Virus record (IMG/VR): IMGVR_UViG_3300028965_000035
Reading direction: 5' to 3' (one strand)
Origin: a virus
Taxonomy: Duplodnaviria; Heunggongvirae; Uroviricota; Caudoviricetes
Length of the DNA: 4,234 bases
Part shown: positions 1 through 4,234 of the stretch, one piece after another
Numbering within the stretch: the first letter of the stretch is position 1
How the letters are laid out: the number at the start of each line of letters is the position of its first letter
Program-made: the position numbers and the translations under genes
The notes under the pieces: generated by a model
Database searches by the model: none
What the model saw: the letters and a program-made list of their open reading frames with translations, nothing else
What the model was told of the DNA's origin: nothing

Positions 1-284
1 TCAGCCGGGGGCAGGCTGCCGGTCACGGCAGCCACCTTTGCGGCCGCGTCGGACGGGGAGACACCAAACACCTTTTCAACCAGTTTCAGGCCGTCACCGG
101 CACCACACTGATTGCAGTACCAGGTGCCGCGCCCCTCCCTGTCATCAAAACGGAAGCGGTCACTCCCGCCACAGACCGGACAGGGCTGATGACGGTTTTT
201 CAGCACCTGAATCCCCAGCGCCGGGAGAATACGCGGCCAGTGGCCGAGCGCATGGCTGACGGTGGCGGTTACGTTCATTTTCAT
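1..284 (-). CDS. alpha: N-terminal ~94 codons of P4-type alpha primase/helicase; gene continues beyond the window start
   Basis: Minus-strand ATG at 284-282, GAAGGAG Shine-Dalgarno (complement of 294-300) about 10 nt upstream. Open frame to the window edge translates MKMNVTATVSHALGHWPRILPALGIQVLKNRHQPCPVCGGSDRFRFDDREGRGTWYCNQCGAGDG..., i.e. a CxxC...CxxC zinc-ribbon typical of primase N-termini. Position downstream of orf106 matches P4 order. Confidence 0.8.
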   Translation of the reverse strand, partial: MKMNVTATVSHALGHWPRILPALGIQVLKNRHQPCPVCGGSDRFRFDDREGRGTWYCNQCGAGDGLKLVEKVFGVSPSDAAAKVAAVTGSLPPA

Positions 285-298
285 GGTGTTGTTCTCCT

Positions 299-619
299 TC
301 AGTGCAGTACCGGCGCTTTTATGTGACGGGCACAGAGTTCATCCATCACAACCAGCCCGAGAAAGGACAGCGACGGCGCGGCCTTCAGGGGGCCGGATTC
401 CATTAAATCTTCCAGCAGGGCACAGGCTATCTGACGCCCTTTTTCCTCACCGTGCTGGCGCAGATAAAAGCCTTCCAGCTCAGCGGCGATGGCCGCTTCC
501 AGTGACTCAAGGGTGAGATGCGGGTAGCGGTGCTGACGTTCGCACACGGTCAGCCAGGCACAGGCGACAGCGCGACGGTAAAGGGCAGCGCGTAAGACGG
601 GCGGTAAGGGTGTTTTCAT
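299..619 (-). CDS. Hypothetical protein, 106 aa (P4 orf106 equivalent), function unknown
   Basis: Complete ORF in the track. ATG at 619-617 preceded by GGGAGG (complement of 627-632) with 7-nt spacer. TGA stop at 301-299 lies inside the alpha Shine-Dalgarno region. Length and position match P4 orf106. Confidence 0.75.
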
Positions 620-700
620 TTGTTTTCCTCCCTGTGACAGATGACTGCATTCCGTGCCGGTTGCATTAACTGATAAGGCATATCTGCGTCTCCTGAAGAC

Positions 701-726
701 GTGCGTATCCCTGCGCGAATACGCAC
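701..726. other. Intergenic stem-loop between orf151 and orf106 (8-bp stem GTGCGTAT/ATACGCAC, 10-nt loop)
   Basis: Perfect inverted repeat 701-708 / 719-726. On the + strand it is followed by T-rich sequence (727-750), so it looks like an intrinsic terminator for antisense transcription. On the - strand it sits 29 nt after the orf151 stop with no U-run. Confidence 0.4.
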
Positions 727-754
727 ATTTAATTTTTCGGGTGTCGTTTTTTAA

Positions 755-1210
755 TTACAGATAATTGCGGTAACTGTTATCCGGGGTGATTTCCGGGTCA
801 GGCTCCGTGCGGGGAATTTCCCGCCATTCCCGCGCCACCGGTGCCGCCCGGCTGGCCGGAACAGTGTCCTGCGGGTAAATATCCAGATATTTCTCCCGCC
901 ATTTCTGTAATTCCGGGTCTCCGGCCATTTCTTTCAGTACCGCATGCCGGTTTACGGGGCTGCGTTTAAACAGGTCAGGACGGTCACAGGTAAATTCCCG
1001 CAGAAAACGCCCCAGCGGGATGTCTGTGGTGCGCCCGTCAGCGAGGATACGCACAAGGATACTGAATTTACGGCGGTACGGGTTCCAGACAATGTCCGGG
1101 CAGCGGTACGGCATTTCCCACGGAATACCGTCTTCCAGAATGCCGACCACGGCCACATCGGGAAAACCGGCAGAACGGTAAATCTCACCGGGCTGGGGAA
1201 AATCAAACAT
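755..1210 (-). CDS. Hypothetical protein, 151 aa (P4 orf151 equivalent), function unknown
   Basis: Complete ORF in the track. ATG at 1210-1208 overlaps the end of the upstream epsilon frame (ATGTTTGA, 8-nt overlap). TAA stop at 757-755. Length and position match P4 orf151. Confidence 0.75.
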   Translation of the reverse strand: MFDFPQPGEIYRSAGFPDVAVVGILEDGIPWEMPYRCPDIVWNPYRRKFSILVRILADGRTTDIPLGRFLREFTCDRPDLFKRSPVNRHAVLKEMAGDPELQKWREKYLDIYPQDTVPASRAAPVAREWREIPRTEPDPEITPDNSYRNYL

Positions 1211-1490
1211 GCGTCCTGTCTCCCCGGTCTTTCTGCTGGGCGAGAAAATCGCGGCACAGGCCTTTGGCTTTCAGCTCATTCAGCACAAAATCAATATCTT
1301 CATTCAGGTAGCTGAAAATATGCGGAATGTAGAGCTGATGCAGGCCGGAGAGTTCACGGTGAATCAAATCACCCCCAACAAACCGGGATACGGCGCTGGC
1401 GCGGTTGAGCTTATGGTAAGCCTCAATGCTGAGGTGTTCACGGGCGTCATGACGCGCTGAGACGGTCTGAGGGGTTTTTTTATTACGCAC
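1203..1490 (-). CDS. epsilon: Epsilon-like helper-prophage derepression protein, 95 aa if started at the GTG
   Basis: The track shows a 175-aa frame (1203-1730) whose upstream part overlaps kil in another frame. The only start with a ribosome-binding site is GTG at 1490-1488, preceded by GGAGGTG (complement of 1495-1501) with a 4-6 nt spacer. It lies 2 nt past the kil TAA stop (1485-1483). Product ends ...DRGDRTHV. Assignment is by position and size; the start codon is inferred. Confidence 0.55.
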
Positions 1491-1680
1491 GGGACACCTC
1501 CACCACCGGCAGACGGGCAGCAAGGGAGAGCACATAGTCACGGACAAGGGAACGGCGGGCACTGCGTTCATCACCGGCGACGGTGCGAAGCATGCAGATA
1601 CGGGGATGACGGTCTGCGCGACGGACAGCCGCAAACACAAAGACAAATTCAGGGTGTGAAGGGGTAAGGGTTGTAGCCAT
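1483..1680 (-). CDS. kil: Kil, 65 aa; an in-frame internal ATG at 1593-1591 would give a nested 36-aa product (eta-like)
   Basis: ATG at 1680-1678 preceded by AAGGAG (complement of 1689-1694) with 8-nt spacer. This is residue 147 of the 211-aa track ORF 1483-2118, whose upstream part covers the CI RNA/seqA leader and is therefore not coding. Product [65 protein letters not shown]. Confidence 0.6.
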
Positions 1681-1686
1681 AAGGCA

Positions 1687-1699
1687 GTCTCCTTCGAGT
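1687..1699 (-). promoter_or_regulatory. seqC-like target of the CI RNA loop, overlapping the kil ribosome-binding site
   Basis: + strand GTCTCCTTCGAGT (1687-1699) matches 12 of 13 positions of GTCGCCTTCGAGT at 1946-1958. Its transcript ACUCGAAGGAGAC is complementary to the loop AUUCUUCGAG in the 1746-1810 RNA (about 9 bp including one G-U). Confidence 0.55.
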
Positions 1700-1745
1700 A
1701 GCAAATAACTGCTATCGCCGGAGTTCTCACGCTCGATGGCGATAG

Positions 1746-1810
1746 CCCAGACGGGGGTGAGAATACCGGCCTCGAAGAATACCGGCCAGCCCGGAGGCTG
1801 CCCCGCCTGA
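1746..1810 (-). ncRNA. cI: CI-type immunity RNA (antisense regulator carrying seqB in a hairpin loop); ends approximate
   Basis: Minus-strand transcript folds into an outer stem (GGCGGGG 1807-1801 with CCCCGUC 1756-1750) enclosing two hairpins: CAGCC-UCCG-GGCUG, and a CCGG/CCGG stem with 10-nt loop AUUCUUCGAG. The complement of that loop, CTCGAAG (1771-1777), occurs only here in the window. Flanked by the direct repeat GAATACCGGCC (1761-1771, 1777-1787). Confidence 0.5.
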
Positions 1811-1919
1811 GCTACCATTGACTCAGTGGCATAACATGCGATTGCGAACAGGATCATACCTGCACGGCAAACCACACGCCACACCATAATCTGGCGCTCT
1901 GTGGCGTTGATTGCGACAC

Positions 1920-1941
1920 AAAAAAAGACGCATGGCGCGTC
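1920..1941 (-). terminator. Terminator-like hairpin plus U7 in the PLE leader, immediately downstream of seqA
   Basis: Minus-strand RNA GACGC-GCCAU-GCGUC (5-bp GC-rich stem, 1941-1927) followed directly by UUUUUUU (1926-1920). The stem is short, so this is more likely a weak or conditional terminator than a constitutive one. Confidence 0.4.
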
Positions 1942-1945
1942 ATAT

Positions 1946-1958
1946 GTCGCCTTCGAGT
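1946..1958 (-). promoter_or_regulatory. seqA-like target of the CI RNA loop in the 5' leader
   Basis: GTCGCCTTCGAGT, direct repeat of the seqC box, about 40-50 nt downstream of the predicted PLE start; complementary to the seqB loop (about 8 bp). Confidence 0.5.
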
Positions 1959-1996
1959 TACACGGGTTCTCACGCCCGGCTGCCGATTTTGCGGCA

Positions 1997-2034
1997 GCGG
2001 AAAAACTATATCCGCAAATGCCGGAAAAAGGCAA
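1997..2034 (-). promoter_or_regulatory. PLE-like constitutive sigma70 promoter of the leftward operon
   Basis: Minus strand -35 TTGCCT (complement of 2029-2034), 18-bp spacer, -10 TATAGT (complement of 2005-2010). Predicted start near 1997, between the vis stop and seqA. Confidence 0.5.
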
Positions 2035-2069
2035 GCCAGAAAAAGGGAGTTTTTGCAGAGCGGGCATCA

Positions 2070-2336
2070 TCATGCGTCGTACCCCCGTTTGCGTCCGGCA
2101 ATGCGCCCGGTCATCCATGCGGTGATTTCAGAGTGCAGCCAGGCCACATTTTTACCGCCAAGACTCACCTGCGGCGGAAATTCCCCCTTACGGATGAGTT
2201 CATAGATGGTCGAGCGTGACAGGCCGCACAGGTGCATCACTTCCGGCAGACGTAAAAAACGCTCCTGCGTGATGTCCGGCAGCGGCATCAGTGGCGTCAC
2301 TGGGGCGGGAGACGGGGAAGAAAAAACAGCTTGCAT
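2070..2336 (-). CDS. vis: Vis, AlpA/excisionase-family helix-turn-helix regulator, 88 aa
   Basis: Complete ORF. ATG at 2336-2334 preceded by GAGGT (complement of 2344-2348) with 7-nt spacer. Product contains [27 protein letters not shown], a typical AlpA/Xis-type HTH. First gene downstream of the PLL-like promoter. Confidence 0.8.
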
Positions 2337-2384
2337 CGGGCTACCTCGTTAATGTCCATACAGCACCGGATAAGTCCGTCCGGC

Positions 2385-2456
2385 TTCGGGTAGCGCTTTA
2401 TTTTGTGAATATTTTCGGCAGACGCAACAGGGGGGATTTGTTCAGGCAGCCTTACA
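2385..2456 (-). promoter_or_regulatory. PLL-like late promoter with Delta/Ogr-type activator dyad TGT-N12-ACA
   Basis: Dyad TGTTCAGGCAGCCTTACA at 2439-2456 (centre 2447.5). Weak AT-rich -10 candidate around 2399-2407 on the minus strand, predicted start near 2390, reading into vis. Confidence 0.5.
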
Positions 2457-2520
2457 ATGGCTGTGTGTTTTTTATCCATCCGGACTGGAAGGGTCTCAAA
2501 GGGTTCTGAAGGACCTGGAA

Positions 2521-2740
2521 TTTTTTATAGTGAAATACAAATTGTTTTTTCTTATTTATTTCAGTGAATTAATAAAAATAAAAAGTAATAAACAGCACAA
2601 AAAGTCCATGAACGGGTGAACAGTGGTGAACAGACGGTGAACAGTCATTACTGCGATTGTTCACCCTTTAACTTACTGTATTACTTATCTTTTTTATTAA
2701 GGTGAACAGAGGTGAACAGTAAAACATAAAAAAAAACAGT
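2521..2740. other. Replication origin region: AT-rich tract with six copies of the octamer TGTTCACC (alpha-binding iteron type)
   Basis: Complement-strand copies GGTGAACA at 2615-2622, 2625-2632, 2636-2643, 2701-2708, 2711-2718 (each as GGTGAACAG); one opposite-orientation copy TGTTCACC at 2658-2665. Flanked by AT-rich DNA (2521-2600, 2666-2700) and an A9 run at 2728-2736. Confidence 0.7.
2615..2719. repeat. Iteron cluster (GGTGAACAG, five direct copies plus one inverted copy)
   Basis: Exact 8-9 bp repeats at about 10-11 bp (one helical turn) spacing in two blocks, separated by an inverted copy. Confidence 0.8.
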
Positions 2741-2795
2741 AAGCAGGTTTTTCCTGCGACCTTTTCCTGGCTTGCCGGTCTGAGGATGAGTCTCC

Positions 2796-2860
2796 TGTGT
2801 CAGGGCTGGCACATCTGCAATGCGTCGTGTTGTTGTCCGGTGTACGTCACAATTTTCTTA
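2796..2860 (+). promoter_or_regulatory. Psid-like late promoter with Delta/Ogr-type activator dyad TGT-N12-ACA
   Basis: Dyad TGTGTCAGGGCTGGCACA at 2796-2813 (centre 2804.5). Weak -10 candidate CACAAT at 2848-2853, predicted start near 2860, leader of about 25 nt to the sid ATG. Confidence 0.5.
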
Positions 2861-2885
2861 ACCTGAAGTGACGAGGAGCCGGAAA

Positions 2886-3620
2886 ATGTCTGACAACACC
2901 ATCCCTGAATATCTGCAACCCGCGCTGGCACAACTGGAAAAGGCCAGAGCCGCCCATCTTGAGAACGCCCGCCTGATGGATGAGACCGTCACGGCCATTG
3001 AACGGGCAGAGCAGGAAAAAAATGCGCTGGCGCAGGCCGACGGAAACGACGCTGACGACTGGCGCACGGCCTTTCGTGCAGCCGGTGGTGTCCTGAGCGA
3101 CGAGCTGAAACAGCGCCACATTGAGCGCGTGGCACGCCGGGAGCTGGTACAGGAATATGACAATCTGGCCGTGGTGCTGAATTTCGAACGTGAACGCCTG
3201 AAAGGGGCGTGTGACAGCACGGCCACCGCCTACCGGAAGGCACATCATCACCTTCTGAGTCTGTATGCAGAGCATGAGCTGGAACACGCCCTGAATGAAA
3301 CCTGTGAGGCGCTTGTCCGGGCAATGCATCTGAGTATCCTGGTACAGGAAAATCCGCTCGCCAACACCACCGGCCATCAGGGCTACGTCGCACCCGATAA
3401 GGCTGTCATGCAGCAGGTGAAATCATCGCTGGAACAGAAAATTAAACAGATGCAAATCAGCCTCACCGGCGAGCCGGTTCTCCGGCTGGCCGGACTGTCA
3501 GCGGCAACACTCCCGCACATGGATTATGAGGTGGCAGGCACACCGGCACAGCGCAAGGTGTGGCAGGACAAAATAGACCAGCAGGGAGCAGAGCTTAAGG
3601 CCAGAGGACTGCTGTCATGA
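2886..3620 (+). CDS. sid: Sid, external scaffold that redirects helper capsid assembly to the small size, 244 aa
   Basis: ATG at 2886 preceded by GAGGAG (2873-2878) with 7-nt spacer. The track's 2868 start is an in-frame GTG without a ribosome-binding site. TGA stop at 3618-3620 overlaps the delta ATG. Assigned by size and position directly before delta. Confidence 0.85.
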   Translation: MSDNTIPEYLQPALAQLEKARAAHLENARLMDETVTAIERAEQEKNALAQADGNDADDWRTAFRAAGGVLSDELKQRHIERVARRELVQEYDNLAVVLNFERERLKGACDSTATAYRKAHHHLLSLYAEHELEHALNETCEALVRAMHLSILVQENPLANTTGHQGYVAPDKAVMQQVKSSLEQKIKQMQISLTGEPVLRLAGLSAATLPHMDYEVAGTPAQRKVWQDKIDQQGAELKARGLLS

Positions 3621-4117
3621 TTTACTGCCCGTCGTGTGGACATGTTGCTCACACCCGTCGCGCACATTTCATGGACGATGGCACCAAGATAATGATTGCA
3701 CAGTGCCGGAATATTTATTGCTCTGCGACATTTGAAGCGAGTGAAAGCTTTTTCTCTGACAGTAAAGATTCAGGAATGGAATACATTTCAGGCAAACAGA
3801 GATACCGCGATTCACTGACGTCGGCCTCCGGCAGTATGAAACGCCCGAAAAGAATGCTTGTTACCGGATATTGTTGTCGGAGATGTAAAGGCCTTGCGCT
3901 GTCAAGAACATCGCGGCGTCTGTCTCAGGAAGTCACCGAGCGTTTTTATGTGTGCACGGATCCGGGCTGTGGTCTGGTGTTTAAAACGCTTCAGACCATC
4001 ACCCGCTTCATTGTCCGCCCGGTCACGCCGGACGAACTGGCAGAACGCCTGCATGAAAAACAGGAACTGCCGCCAGTACGGTTAAAAACACAATCATATT
4101 CGCTGCGTCTGGAATGA
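3617..4117 (+). CDS. delta: Delta, late-gene transcriptional activator made of two Ogr-like zinc-finger modules, 166 aa
   Basis: ATG at 3617 overlaps the sid stop (ATGA); GAGGA at 3604-3608. N-terminal module MIYCPSCGH...CRNIYCSATF and second module CCRRCKG...CTDPGCGLVF each have CxxC...Cx4C spacing like Ogr-family activators. Confidence 0.85.
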   Translation: MIYCPSCGHVAHTRRAHFMDDGTKIMIAQCRNIYCSATFEASESFFSDSKDSGMEYISGKQRYRDSLTSASGSMKRPKRMLVTGYCCRRCKGLALSRTSRRLSQEVTERFYVCTDPGCGLVFKTLQTITRFIVRPVTPDELAERLHEKQELPPVRLKTQSYSLRLE

Positions 4118-4178
4118 GGGCTGCCGGTTAACCCCGGCCGTTGCGTATTACCGTGAAGGAGATCGGTGAGTAACATCG

Positions 4179-4234
4179 ATGGAGATCGGTTCGTGTCACT
4201 TTCACAGAACCGTTTTTAAATTACCTTCACTGAT
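4179..4234 (+). CDS. 5' end of the next late-operon ORF (psu position in P4), truncated by the window end; product not assignable from 18 codons
   Basis: Only frame open to the window end after delta. First ATG at 4179 (MEIGSCHFHRTVFKLPSL...). The nearest strong Shine-Dalgarno, AAGGAGA at 4156-4162, is 16 nt upstream, which is too far for a good site. Identity uncertain. Confidence 0.3.
   Translation, partial: MEIGSCHFHRTVFKLPSL

What the first reader, a model, noticed from the sequence alone, without database searches (positions are those of the whole stretch)
284..3620. Chain of overlapping stops and starts indicating translational coupling
kil stop TAA (1485-1483) lies 2 nt before the proposed epsilon GTG (1490-1488). 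Epsilon and orf151 overlap by 8 nt (ATGTTTGA). The orf106 stop TGA (301-299) sits in the alpha Shine-Dalgarno. sid and delta overlap as ATGA (3617-3620). Such packing suggests fixed expression ratios and polarity-sensitive expression along both operons.
Basis: seen in the sequence. Interest (0 to 1): 0.35.

Follow-up and report, generated by a model that had tools for sequence, protein, structure and literature searches.

The report
Overlapping gene junctions in satellite P4
The window is a near-copy of the well-studied satellite phage P4, and its overlapping stop and start codons are real and conserved across the P4 family, but they are the ordinary, already annotated kind of tight gene junction found in bacterial operons.

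Summary
The window is a P4-type prophage of E. coli, 97% identical to phage P4. All four junctions are at the stated coordinates:
- kil/epsilon: GTGCGTAA, 1490-1483. This is an 8-nt overlap in the direction of translation, not a gap.
- epsilon/orf151: ATGTTTGA, 1210-1203.
- orf106(cnr)/alpha: TGA-AGGAG-9 nt-ATG, 301-282.
- sid/delta: ATGA, 3617-3620.

P4's GenBank record has had the same geometry since 1984/1990.

In 28 divergent P4-like loci the junctions stay tight even where the stop codon moves or the neighbouring gene differs.

Coupling of eta to the alpA homolog, and the dependence of read-through on eta translation, are already published for P4. For the four listed junctions coupling is plausible but untested. 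Every downstream gene has its own Shine-Dalgarno sequence, and I found no conserved hairpin hiding a ribosome-binding site.

Against the E. coli background (24% of co-directional pairs at -8..+6) the enrichment is modest (p = 0.03).

Verdict: real, conserved, ordinary and already known. Interest is low.

The parts
2070..2336 (-). orf88 (vis, AlpA family), first cistron of the late (PLL) form of the left operon.
   Evidence: translation. Pfam Phage_AlpA, E = 3.9e-21. P4 ORF88 annotation.
2070..2073 (-). ATGA overlap: the orf88 stop TGA (2072-2070) and the eta start ATG (2073-2071).
   Evidence: the ATG opens a 196-codon frame that ends at the kil stop. It is kept in 13 of 13 further loci there and 7 of 7. 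RefSeq annotates the same 4-nt overlap. [quoted passage not shown]
1483..2073 (-). eta reading frame (196 codons). It contains the PLE promoter, the seqA/isrK-like leader, the CI RNA gene and the nested kil gene.
   Evidence: Gene callers assign Pfam Phage_ASH to the homologous ORF. PLE-like promoter at 2034-2005 and t1-like terminator at 1941-1927.
1735..1822 (-). CI immunity RNA (Rfam C4 family).
   Evidence: RF01695, 74.3 bits, E = 8e-14. The isrK-like/seqA element is at 1998-1921 and the c4-a1b1 targets at 2011-1959.
1483..1680 (-). kil (65 codons), nested in eta; stop TAA at 1485-1483.
   Evidence: 100% identical to the P4 kil region by tblastn. SD GAAGGAG upstream, -8.8 kcal/mol.
1483..1490 (-). 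Junction 1: GTGCGTAA, the 8-nt overlap of the epsilon start and the kil/eta stop. SD GGAGGT lies at 1501-1496.
   Evidence: In the 80 close metagenomic relatives the start is GTG in the great majority and ATG in 4. It is ATG in all 8 divergent epsilon loci. The overlap there is 8, 11 or 14 nt and 8 nt in L018.
1203..1490 (-). epsilon (95 codons, helper derepression protein).
   Evidence: Pfam Derepression PF25738, E = 7e-51. P4 annotation.
1203..1210 (-). Junction 2: ATGTTTGA, the 8-nt overlap of the orf151 start and the epsilon stop.
   Evidence: Identical in 80 of 80 close relatives and in 7 of 7 divergent loci. Buttiauxella L018 has a 3-nt spacer instead.
755..1210 (-). orf151, function unknown.
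701..726 (-). Conserved 8-bp hairpin, GTGCGTAT-N10-ATACGCAC, in the only long untranslated spacer of the operon.
   Evidence: present in all epsilon-bearing loci. It shows no compensatory changes. Already listed as a dyad symmetry in X02534.
616..681 (-). 21-codon mini-ORF ([21 protein letters not shown]) with SD AGGAG at 694-690. It is an in-frame remnant of the family's 75-86-aa gene.
   Evidence: The alignment shows a 195-nt in-frame deletion relative to L105. The frame is intact in 69 of 69 close relatives. PMC8628076 notes that the 75-aa family is absent from P4.
616..619 (-). ATGA overlap of the mini-ORF stop and the orf106 (cnr) start.
   Evidence: The homologous orf75/cnr ATGA is present in 18 of 18 loci that carry the full gene.
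299..619 (-). orf106 (cnr, DUF5375); own SD GGGAGG at 632-627.
   Evidence: Pfam DUF5375, E = 3e-63. SD -11.1 kcal/mol and a weakly paired ribosome-binding site.
282..301 (-). Junction 3: orf106 stop TGA (301-299), SD AGGAG (298-294), 9 nt, alpha ATG (284-282).
   Evidence: The stop directly followed by GGGAG or a similar motif, with a 10-14 nt spacer, is kept in 13 of 13 loci and 7 of 8. L109 has ATGA.
1..284 (-). 5' end of alpha (primase-helicase), first 94 codons.
   Evidence: 100% identical to P4 alpha residues 1-94.
2886..3620 (+). sid (244 codons, capsid size determination).
   Evidence: Homologs of 55-66% identity.
3617..3620 (+). Junction 4: ATGA overlap of the delta start and the sid stop. 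A weak SD, GAGGA, lies at 3604-3608.
   Evidence: ATGA in 21 of 21 loci and 6 of 7 (L108 has TAA-GC-ATG). SD -5.8 kcal/mol, the weakest in the chain.
3617..4117 (+). delta (166 codons, two Ogr/Delta zinc-finger repeats).
   Evidence: Pfam Ogr_Delta, two stretches.
4143..4234 (.). Terminus of an IS21-family element (ISEc12), inserted 26-29 nt after the delta stop. It separates psu from sid-delta.
   Evidence: 100% match to the istB-proximal end of ISEc12 in L113. P4 homology ends at about 4144.

Best explanation
**What it is.** These are the standard tight cistron junctions of the two essential operons of satellite phage P4.

**Left operon.** On the late (PLL) transcript, ribosomes can run almost without a break through this chain:
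- vis -(ATGA)- eta/kil -(8 nt)- epsilon -(8 nt)- orf151
- then a 72-nt spacer with a hairpin
- then mini-ORF -(ATGA)- cnr -(14 nt, stop abutting the SD)- alpha

**Right operon.** sid -(ATGA)- delta.

**How it most likely works.**
- At the -4 and -8 overlaps, a ribosome terminating the upstream gene reinitiates at the overlapping start, or melts local structure so that a new ribosome can initiate. Downstream output is then tied to upstream translation.
- Near-continuous ribosome cover also leaves little naked RNA for Rho. This matters especially in P4, whose immunity works by premature termination in the leader of this same operon.

**Status of each step.**
- Shown here: the junctions exist and are under purifying selection across the family, with the stop position turning over but staying close to the next start.
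- Shown in the literature: vis-to-eta coupling, and read-through that depends on eta translation.
- Inferred: coupling at kil/epsilon, epsilon/orf151 and sid/delta.
- Inferred: cnr/alpha, and probably cnr itself, initiate largely on their own strong, unstructured ribosome-binding sites.
For: **Identity.** 97% identical to P4 over 4141 nt. P4's annotation gives the same junction distances.

**Junction sequences.**

**Family conservation.**
- sid/delta: ATGA in 27 of 28 non-P4 loci.
- eta/kil to the next gene: always overlapping. ATGA or GTGA where the next gene is orf75; 8, 11 or 14 nt where it is epsilon.
- epsilon/orf151: ATGTTTGA in 7 of 8 divergent loci.
- orf75/cnr: ATGA in 18 of 18.
- vis/eta: ATGA in 20 of 20 divergent loci, and also in P4 itself.
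- cnr stop abutting the SD of alpha: 20 of 21.

**Start codon of epsilon.** GTG/ATG polymorphism at the same position.

**Literature.**
- eta is coupled to the alpA homolog, and eta translation prevents termination (PMC10111431).
- 13 of 14 overlapping pairs were strictly coupled (PMC6728339).
- Reinitiation falls steeply with distance (PMC10666635).
- Rho loads on untranslated RNA, which causes polarity (PMC12548453).

**Ribosome-binding sites.** Delta has the weakest SD, -5.8 kcal/mol. The epsilon and orf151 sites are more paired (0.75, 0.66) than those of cnr and alpha (0.34, 0.35).
Against: - I found no experiment on the four listed junctions. The original P4 papers are not in the held library.
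- Every downstream gene has a usable SD, so independent initiation is possible everywhere.
- No conserved structure with compensatory changes hides a ribosome-binding site.
- Part of the conservation follows from dual coding. The downstream start codon and both protein ends are constrained anyway.
- Two lineages tolerate short spacers: L018 at +3 and L108 at +2.
- Enrichment over the E. coli background is modest, p = 0.03.
Confidence: 0.7

Rival explanations
1. The overlaps are a by-product of genome compaction. They arose by neutral loss and replacement of stop codons in a small, size-limited replicon. Each cistron is initiated independently at its own Shine-Dalgarno sequence. The overlaps have no regulatory role beyond saving space.
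For: - All downstream starts have SD duplex energies from -5.8 to -11.1 kcal/mol.
- The ribosome-binding sites of cnr and alpha are largely unpaired.
- -4 and -8 are among the commonest overlap lengths in E. coli.
- No covarying hairpin hides a ribosome-binding site.
- L018 and L108 tolerate +3 and +2 spacers.
Against: - The stop position turns over (8, 11, 14 nt; ATGA versus TAA-GC-ATG), yet it always stays within a few nt of the next start.
- The junction stays overlapping even when a different gene follows kil.
- Overlapping pairs tested in E. coli were almost always coupled.
- vis-to-eta coupling is published for P4.
Confidence: 0.2
2. The coupling is negative, by occlusion. Because the downstream SD and start lie inside the upstream coding sequence, elongating and terminating ribosomes mask them. 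This holds epsilon, orf151 and delta to a low level relative to kil/eta and sid.
For: - The downstream SDs all lie within the last 20 nt of the upstream gene.
- Delta (a regulator) follows sid (a structural protein needed in bulk) and has the weakest SD.
- Ribosome-mediated RBS occlusion is named as a mechanism in the title of a paper listed by the search (PMC13285730). I did not read that paper.
Against: - Experiments on native overlapping pairs found positive, not negative, dependence on upstream translation.
- Nothing in the sequence supports occlusion specifically.
Confidence: 0.1

Closest known systems
Satellite bacteriophage P4 (X51522 / NC_001609), left (PLE/PLL) and right (Psid) operons
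   Same: - 97% nucleotide identity over window 1-4141.
- Same genes in the same order.
- Same junction distances: -4 vis/eta, -8 kil/epsilon, -8 epsilon/orf151, +14 orf106/alpha, -4 sid/delta.
- Same CI RNA and leader elements.
   Different: - About 3% point differences.
- eta is 196 rather than 199 codons.
- An ISEc12 (IS21-family) end replaces the delta-psu intergenic region from about 4143 onward.
P4 vis(alpA)-eta coupling and translation-dependent read-through of the immunity terminator (Forti et al. 1999, as summarised in PMC10111431)
   Same: - Same locus and same ATGA junction (2073-2070).
- Same principle: translation of an upstream frame permits expression of the downstream left-operon genes.
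   Different: As far as I could read, the published work concerns vis/eta/kil and the terminator within them. It does not cover kil/epsilon, epsilon/orf151, cnr/alpha or sid/delta. I could not open the original paper.
Termination-reinitiation at overlapping gene pairs in E. coli (Huber et al. 2019, 2023)
   Same: - Co-directional pairs with -4 or -8 overlaps and an SD inside the upstream gene.
- These are among the commonest overlap lengths in E. coli.
   Different: - The tested E. coli pairs were mostly enzyme or complex subunits. Overlaps are reported as enriched for heteromeric complexes, which does not obviously apply to kil/epsilon/orf151 or sid/delta.
- The three pairs in the 2023 distance experiment had native -1 overlaps. 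I saw no experiment on a -8 overlap.
Gifsy-1 isrK-orf45-anrP locus of Salmonella
   Same: An IsrK/seqA-type leader RNA is followed by cistrons whose translation is coupled. A stop codon early in orf45 reduces anrP translation (PMC4825925). The window has an isrK-family match at 1998-1921.
   Different: The downstream genes and biology differ. There, IsrK acts in trans to activate translation. In P4, CI RNA promotes termination.

Membership tests
P4-like phage satellite (P4 itself) | Near-identity to the P4 reference genome across the essential region. | tested here: met
   97.0% over 4141 nt to X51522 6686-10838.
P4-like phage satellite (P4 itself) | Core components in conserved order: alpha, cnr (DUF5375), epsilon, ASH/eta, AlpA, sid, delta. 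| tested here: met
   Pfam hits for Derepression, DUF5375, Phage_AlpA and Ogr_Delta. Sid homologs. Alpha N-terminus 100% identical to P4. psu and the integrase lie outside the window.
P4-like phage satellite (P4 itself) | CI (C4-family) immunity RNA with a seqA/isrK-like leader downstream of PLE. | tested here: met
   RF01695 at 74.3 bits, RF01394 at 70.7 bits and RF03163 at 50.4 bits, all above their gathering scores. PLE-like promoter at 2034-2005.
Termination-reinitiation (translationally coupled) overlapping gene pairs | Co-directional genes whose stop and start codons overlap or lie within a few nt (-8 to about +6). | tested here: met
   vis/eta -4, kil/epsilon -8, epsilon/orf151 -8, mini-ORF/cnr -4, sid/delta -4. 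cnr/alpha at +14 falls outside this range.
Termination-reinitiation (translationally coupled) overlapping gene pairs | Shine-Dalgarno motif for the downstream gene embedded in the 3' end of the upstream gene. | tested here: met
   GGAGGT (epsilon), GGGGAG/AGGA (orf151), GAGGA (delta), GGGAGG (cnr). Duplex energies -5.8 to -11.1 kcal/mol.
Termination-reinitiation (translationally coupled) overlapping gene pairs | Downstream translation depends on translation of the upstream gene up to its native stop. | not testable with these tools
   This needs reporter fusions with premature stops. It is reported in the literature only for vis-to-eta.
Termination-reinitiation (translationally coupled) overlapping gene pairs | The junction geometry is conserved in relatives beyond what sequence identity alone gives. 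| tested here: met
   Overlaps are kept while the stop position and type change: 8, 11 or 14 nt, TAA or TGA. They are also kept while the downstream gene is swapped. There are two short-spacer exceptions, L018 and L108.
Coupling by unmasking of a structured ribosome-binding site | A conserved hairpin, supported by covariation, that sequesters the downstream SD or start. | tested here: not met
   RNAalifold on 9 sequences found 3 pairs downstream of the start at epsilon/orf151. At kil/epsilon it found an 8-pair stem touching the SD. There were no compensatory changes at either.
Rho-dependent polarity relieved by translation (P4 immunity terminator) | A Rho-dependent terminator inside the translated eta/kil region, with read-through dependent on translation. 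| not testable with these tools
   Taken from PMC10111431 and from my own recollection of Forti et al. 1999. Rho sites cannot be predicted here.

The most novel reading that the evidence does not exclude
The P4 family may be under selection to keep ribosomes continuous from vis to alpha, as a shield against Rho. On this reading the 21-codon mini-ORF (681-616) is not junk. It would be a retained translational relay, with its own AGGAG SD and an ATGA overlap with cnr. It would shorten the only long untranslated gap of the operon from 135 to 72 nt and feed ribosomes into cnr-alpha, so helping to set replication gene dosage. Three independent losses of the 75-86-aa gene (P4 type, L106, L112) all preserved a translated path into cnr.
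Probability: 0.2. Interest if true: 0.35.

Novelty: already known. Interest (0 to 1): 0.12.

Why it matters
It matters little beyond P4 biology. The overlaps are in the P4 GenBank records, and both translational coupling and translation-dependent anti-termination at the head of the left operon are published.

The comparison across relatives adds one small point. Tight junctions are a conserved design feature of the whole P4-like family and survive swaps of gene modules. This fits an element whose lysogeny/lytic switch rests on Rho-dependent and RNA-mediated termination in the same transcript.

There is practical value for people engineering P4 cosmids or transducing particles. Insertions or stop codons in kil, epsilon, orf151 or sid should be expected to affect downstream genes.

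Tried and rejected
1. **Hidden ribosome-binding sites.** Single-sequence folds suggested partial pairing at epsilon and orf151. Alignment folds of 9 divergent sequences gave no covariation. I dropped this as a demonstrated mechanism.
2. **orf75 as a paralog of epsilon.** The profile-profile comparison gave probability 0.5%. Rejected.
3. **Metagenome scan for divergent epsilon loci.** It returned only copies 96-98% identical. These were useful only for checking polymorphism. I obtained divergent loci with the look-up of encoding contigs instead.
4. **Original P4 papers.** Forti 1999, Sabbattini 1995 and Christie & Dokland 2012 are not held in the library. Statements about them rest on secondary citations and on my own knowledge.
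5. **The 36-codon GTG-started version of the mini-ORF (726-616).** Its GTG is the first base triplet of the conserved hairpin and has no SD. The ATG at 681 with AGGAG is the plausible start.
6. **E. coli strain 4114 as the source of the window.** It appeared to cover 100% of the window, but its IS copy sits inside orf88, not after delta. It is not the same insertion.

Full report
**Identity of the window**

Megablast places window 1-4141 on satellite phage P4 (X51522 / NC_001609, positions 6686-10838) at 97.0% identity. In 949 complete E. coli genomes a single matching place covers at least 80% of the window. The window is therefore a P4-type prophage. It covers:
- the start of alpha;
- the whole leftward regulatory/replication operon up to orf88;
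- the origin repeats;
- the rightward sid and delta genes.

Translations and family searches agree with this:
- orf106 is DUF5375 (cnr);
- the 95-codon gene is the Derepression family (epsilon);
- orf88 is AlpA-type;
- delta has two Ogr/Delta fingers.

Rfam finds the CI immunity RNA (C4 family) at 1822-1735. It also finds the seqA/isrK-like leader at 1998-1921 and the C4 target motif at 2011-1959, all on the minus strand. The consensus scan finds a PLE-like promoter at 2034-2005 and a t1-like terminator at 1941-1927.

**The observation**

All four junctions are present at the coordinates given.

| Junction | Sequence | Coordinates | Distance |
|---|---|---|---|
| kil/epsilon | GTGCGTAA | 1490-1483 | -8 |
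| epsilon/orf151 | ATGTTTGA | 1210-1203 | -8 |
| orf106/alpha | TGA-AGGAG-9 nt-ATG | 301-282 | +14 |
| sid/delta | ATGA | 3617-3620 | -4 |

- At kil/epsilon the minus strand reads GGAGGTGTCCC-GTG-CG-TAA. In the direction of translation the epsilon GTG precedes the kil TAA, so the two genes overlap by 8 nt. This is the same geometry as epsilon/orf151.
- At orf106/alpha the A of the stop extends the Shine-Dalgarno motif to AAGGAG.
- The same four distances can be read from the CDS coordinates deposited for P4 in 1984 and 1990.

- *vis/eta.* The orf88 (vis) stop TGA at 2072-2070 overlaps an ATG at 2073-2071. That ATG opens a 196-codon frame ending at the kil stop. This frame is eta, in which kil is nested. 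RefSeq annotates the same 4-nt overlap in a related prophage.
- *mini-ORF/cnr.* The 135-nt 'gap' between orf151 and orf106 is not empty.
  - After a conserved hairpin (726-701) comes an AGGAG (694-690) and an ATG (681).
  - This opens a 21-codon frame whose TGA overlaps the orf106 ATG as ATGA (619-616).
  - Alignment with relatives shows that this is an in-frame remnant of a 75-86-codon gene, with 195 nt deleted.
  - Most P4-like elements carry that gene. Moura de Sousa and Rocha reported it as absent from P4 (PMC8628076).

**Is it more than chance?**

In E. coli 707 of 2987 co-directional pairs (24%) lie between -8 and +6 nt. -4 is the commonest class, followed by -1 and -8. A further 7% lie at +9 to +12 (PMC10666635).

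Four of the six annotated co-directional pairs in the window fall in the tight class. This gives binomial p = 0.031, or 0.010 if the mini-ORF is counted. That is a modest enrichment, unsurprising for an 11.6-kb replicon limited by capsid size.

**Conservation**

I collected 20 divergent P4-like loci through Sid (58-66% identity, many enterobacterial genera). I collected 8 more through epsilon (55-70% identity). I also used 80 near-identical metagenomic copies.

| Junction | Result in divergent loci |
|---|---|
| sid/delta | ATGA in 27 of 28; L108 has TAA-GC-ATG |
| vis/eta | ATGA in 20 of 20, plus P4 itself |
| kil to next gene | always overlapping |
| epsilon/orf151 | ATGTTTGA in 7 of 8; Buttiauxella has a 3-nt spacer |
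| orf75/cnr | ATGA in 18 of 18 |
| cnr/alpha | stop directly followed by GGGAG-like SD, 10-14 nt spacer, in 20 of 21; ATGA in L109 |

Three points stand out.
- Most Sid-selected loci lack epsilon and orf151 altogether. In them kil overlaps the 75-codon gene by ATGA (GTGA in one locus).
- Where epsilon is present the overlap is 8, 11 or 14 nt, with different stop codons. The stop has moved several times and the neighbouring gene has been exchanged, yet the junction has stayed overlapping. This turnover with retention is the best evidence that proximity itself is selected.
- The epsilon start is GTG in most close copies, ATG in 4 of 80, and ATG in all divergent loci. This confirms the proposed start.

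**Mechanism**

The literature I could read supports the general idea and part of the specific one.
- PMC10111431 summarises Forti et al. 1999. It makes four points:
  - A constitutive promoter inside eta gives a transcript that is quickly terminated.
  - Full-length Eta is translated only from the upstream late promoter.
[quoted passage not shown] - Overlapping pairs were strictly coupled in 13 of 14 tests (PMC6728339).
- Reinitiation falls steeply with distance (PMC10666635).
- Rho loads on untranslated RNA (PMC12548453).

On this basis the most likely reading has two parts.
- The -4 and -8 junctions act as termination-reinitiation or ribosome-relay points.
- The near-continuous ribosome cover from vis to alpha protects a long transcript in an element whose immunity depends on premature termination.

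My own calculations refine this.
- Every downstream gene has its own SD.
- Delta has the weakest (-5.8 kcal/mol).
- The epsilon and orf151 sites are moderately paired (0.75, 0.66).
- The cnr and alpha sites are strong and open (-11.1 and -8.8 kcal/mol; about 0.35 paired).

So delta, epsilon and orf151 are the best candidates for real dependence on upstream translation. cnr and alpha probably initiate largely independently. The +14 spacing also lies just beyond the +9 to +12 class for which independent initiation is thought likely.

Alignment folding gave no covarying hairpin that hides a ribosome-binding site. Structural unmasking is therefore not shown.

**Rivals**

- *Compaction with independent initiation.* This is not excluded. 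It is favoured by the universal SDs and by two lineages with +2 and +3 spacers. It explains poorly why overlaps persist while stops move and genes are swapped.
- *Negative coupling by occlusion.* This is possible for delta but runs against the direction seen in published tests of overlapping pairs.

**Comparison with the known, and verdict**

The window is P4 itself, apart from about 3% point differences and an insertion sequence. The junctions are in the reference annotation. Coupling and translation-dependent read-through are published for the head of the left operon. The overlap types are among the commonest in E. coli.

The finding is therefore real, conserved and ordinary. What is mildly new here:
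- the family-wide tabulation of junctions;
- the recognition that P4's orf151-cnr 'gap' holds an in-frame remnant of the family's 75-86-codon gene, which keeps its SD and its ATGA overlap with cnr.

Whether that mini-ORF is translated or matters is untested. I give it about 0.2.

I could not open the original P4 papers. The statement that the four listed junctions are untested therefore rests on secondary sources and my own knowledge.

Noticed in passing
window 4143-4234 (P4 homology ends at about 4144): The terminus of an IS21-family element (ISEc12, istB-proximal end) is inserted 26-29 nt after the delta stop, just past a small GCCGG...CCGGC hairpin. As a result psu is no longer adjacent to sid-delta, which amounts to a natural polar insertion in the right operon.
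   Followed up: partly
window 616-681 (-), SD at 694-690: A 21-codon mini-ORF overlaps the cnr start by ATGA. It is an in-frame remnant (195-nt deletion) of the 75-86-aa gene found in most P4-like elements and reported as absent from P4. It is intact in 69 of 69 close relatives. L106 and L112 lost the same gene by different deletions that fuse its start region to cnr.
   Followed up: partly
window 701-726: A conserved 8-bp hairpin, GTGCGTAT-N10-ATACGCAC, lies between orf151 and the mini-ORF/orf75 start. It is present in all epsilon-bearing loci and shows no compensatory changes. On the plus strand it is followed by a T-rich run (ATTTAATTTTT). Its function is unknown.
   Followed up: partly
L005-L024 (e.g. 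L005 7398-7625) versus window 755-1490: Of the 13 Sid-selected divergent loci that include the left operon, 12 lack epsilon and orf151; L018 is the exception. In those 12, kil is followed directly by the 75-aa gene. In E. coli genomes the epsilon-orf151 module is bimodal: about 976 genomes have it at 95% identity or more, and about 800 match only the kil part at 60-80%.
   Followed up: partly
PMC8628076 methods versus window 1483-2073 and 1203-1490: The P4-like census used Pfam PF10554 (Phage_ASH) as its 'epsilon' marker. Here PF10554 is assigned to the eta/kil frame, while the 95-aa derepression protein epsilon is PF25738. The 'epsilon' core component of that study may therefore be eta.
   Followed up: no
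window 1488-1490: The epsilon start codon is GTG in the window, in P4 and in most close relatives. It is ATG in 4 of 80 metagenomic copies and in all divergent homologs.
   Followed up: yes
L005-L024 and L105-L112, delta genes (e.g. L105 1055-1297): In divergent P4-like elements delta is a single Ogr-like unit of 72-86 aa, and the sid/delta junction often reads ATGATG, which offers both a -4 and a -1 start. The 166-aa two-repeat delta is specific to the P4 lineage. L107 instead carries three short Ogr_Delta ORFs.
   Followed up: no
L109 (Logan ERR5727651_306) 67-6900: This is a different satellite type. It carries AlpA, a P2-type capsid gene (Phage_cap_P2), an ASH-family gene, a 79-aa epsilon homolog, a 136-aa DUF5375 protein and an 898-aa DUF927 primase. 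Its junctions are again -8 and -4.
   Followed up: no
L004 (URND01000141.1): A 6.8-kb contig binned as 'uncultured Clostridiales bacterium UMGS1151' carries a P4 sid-delta region. Its Sid is 99.6-100% identical to that of the window. This is probably an Escherichia contig mis-binned into that MAG.
   Followed up: no
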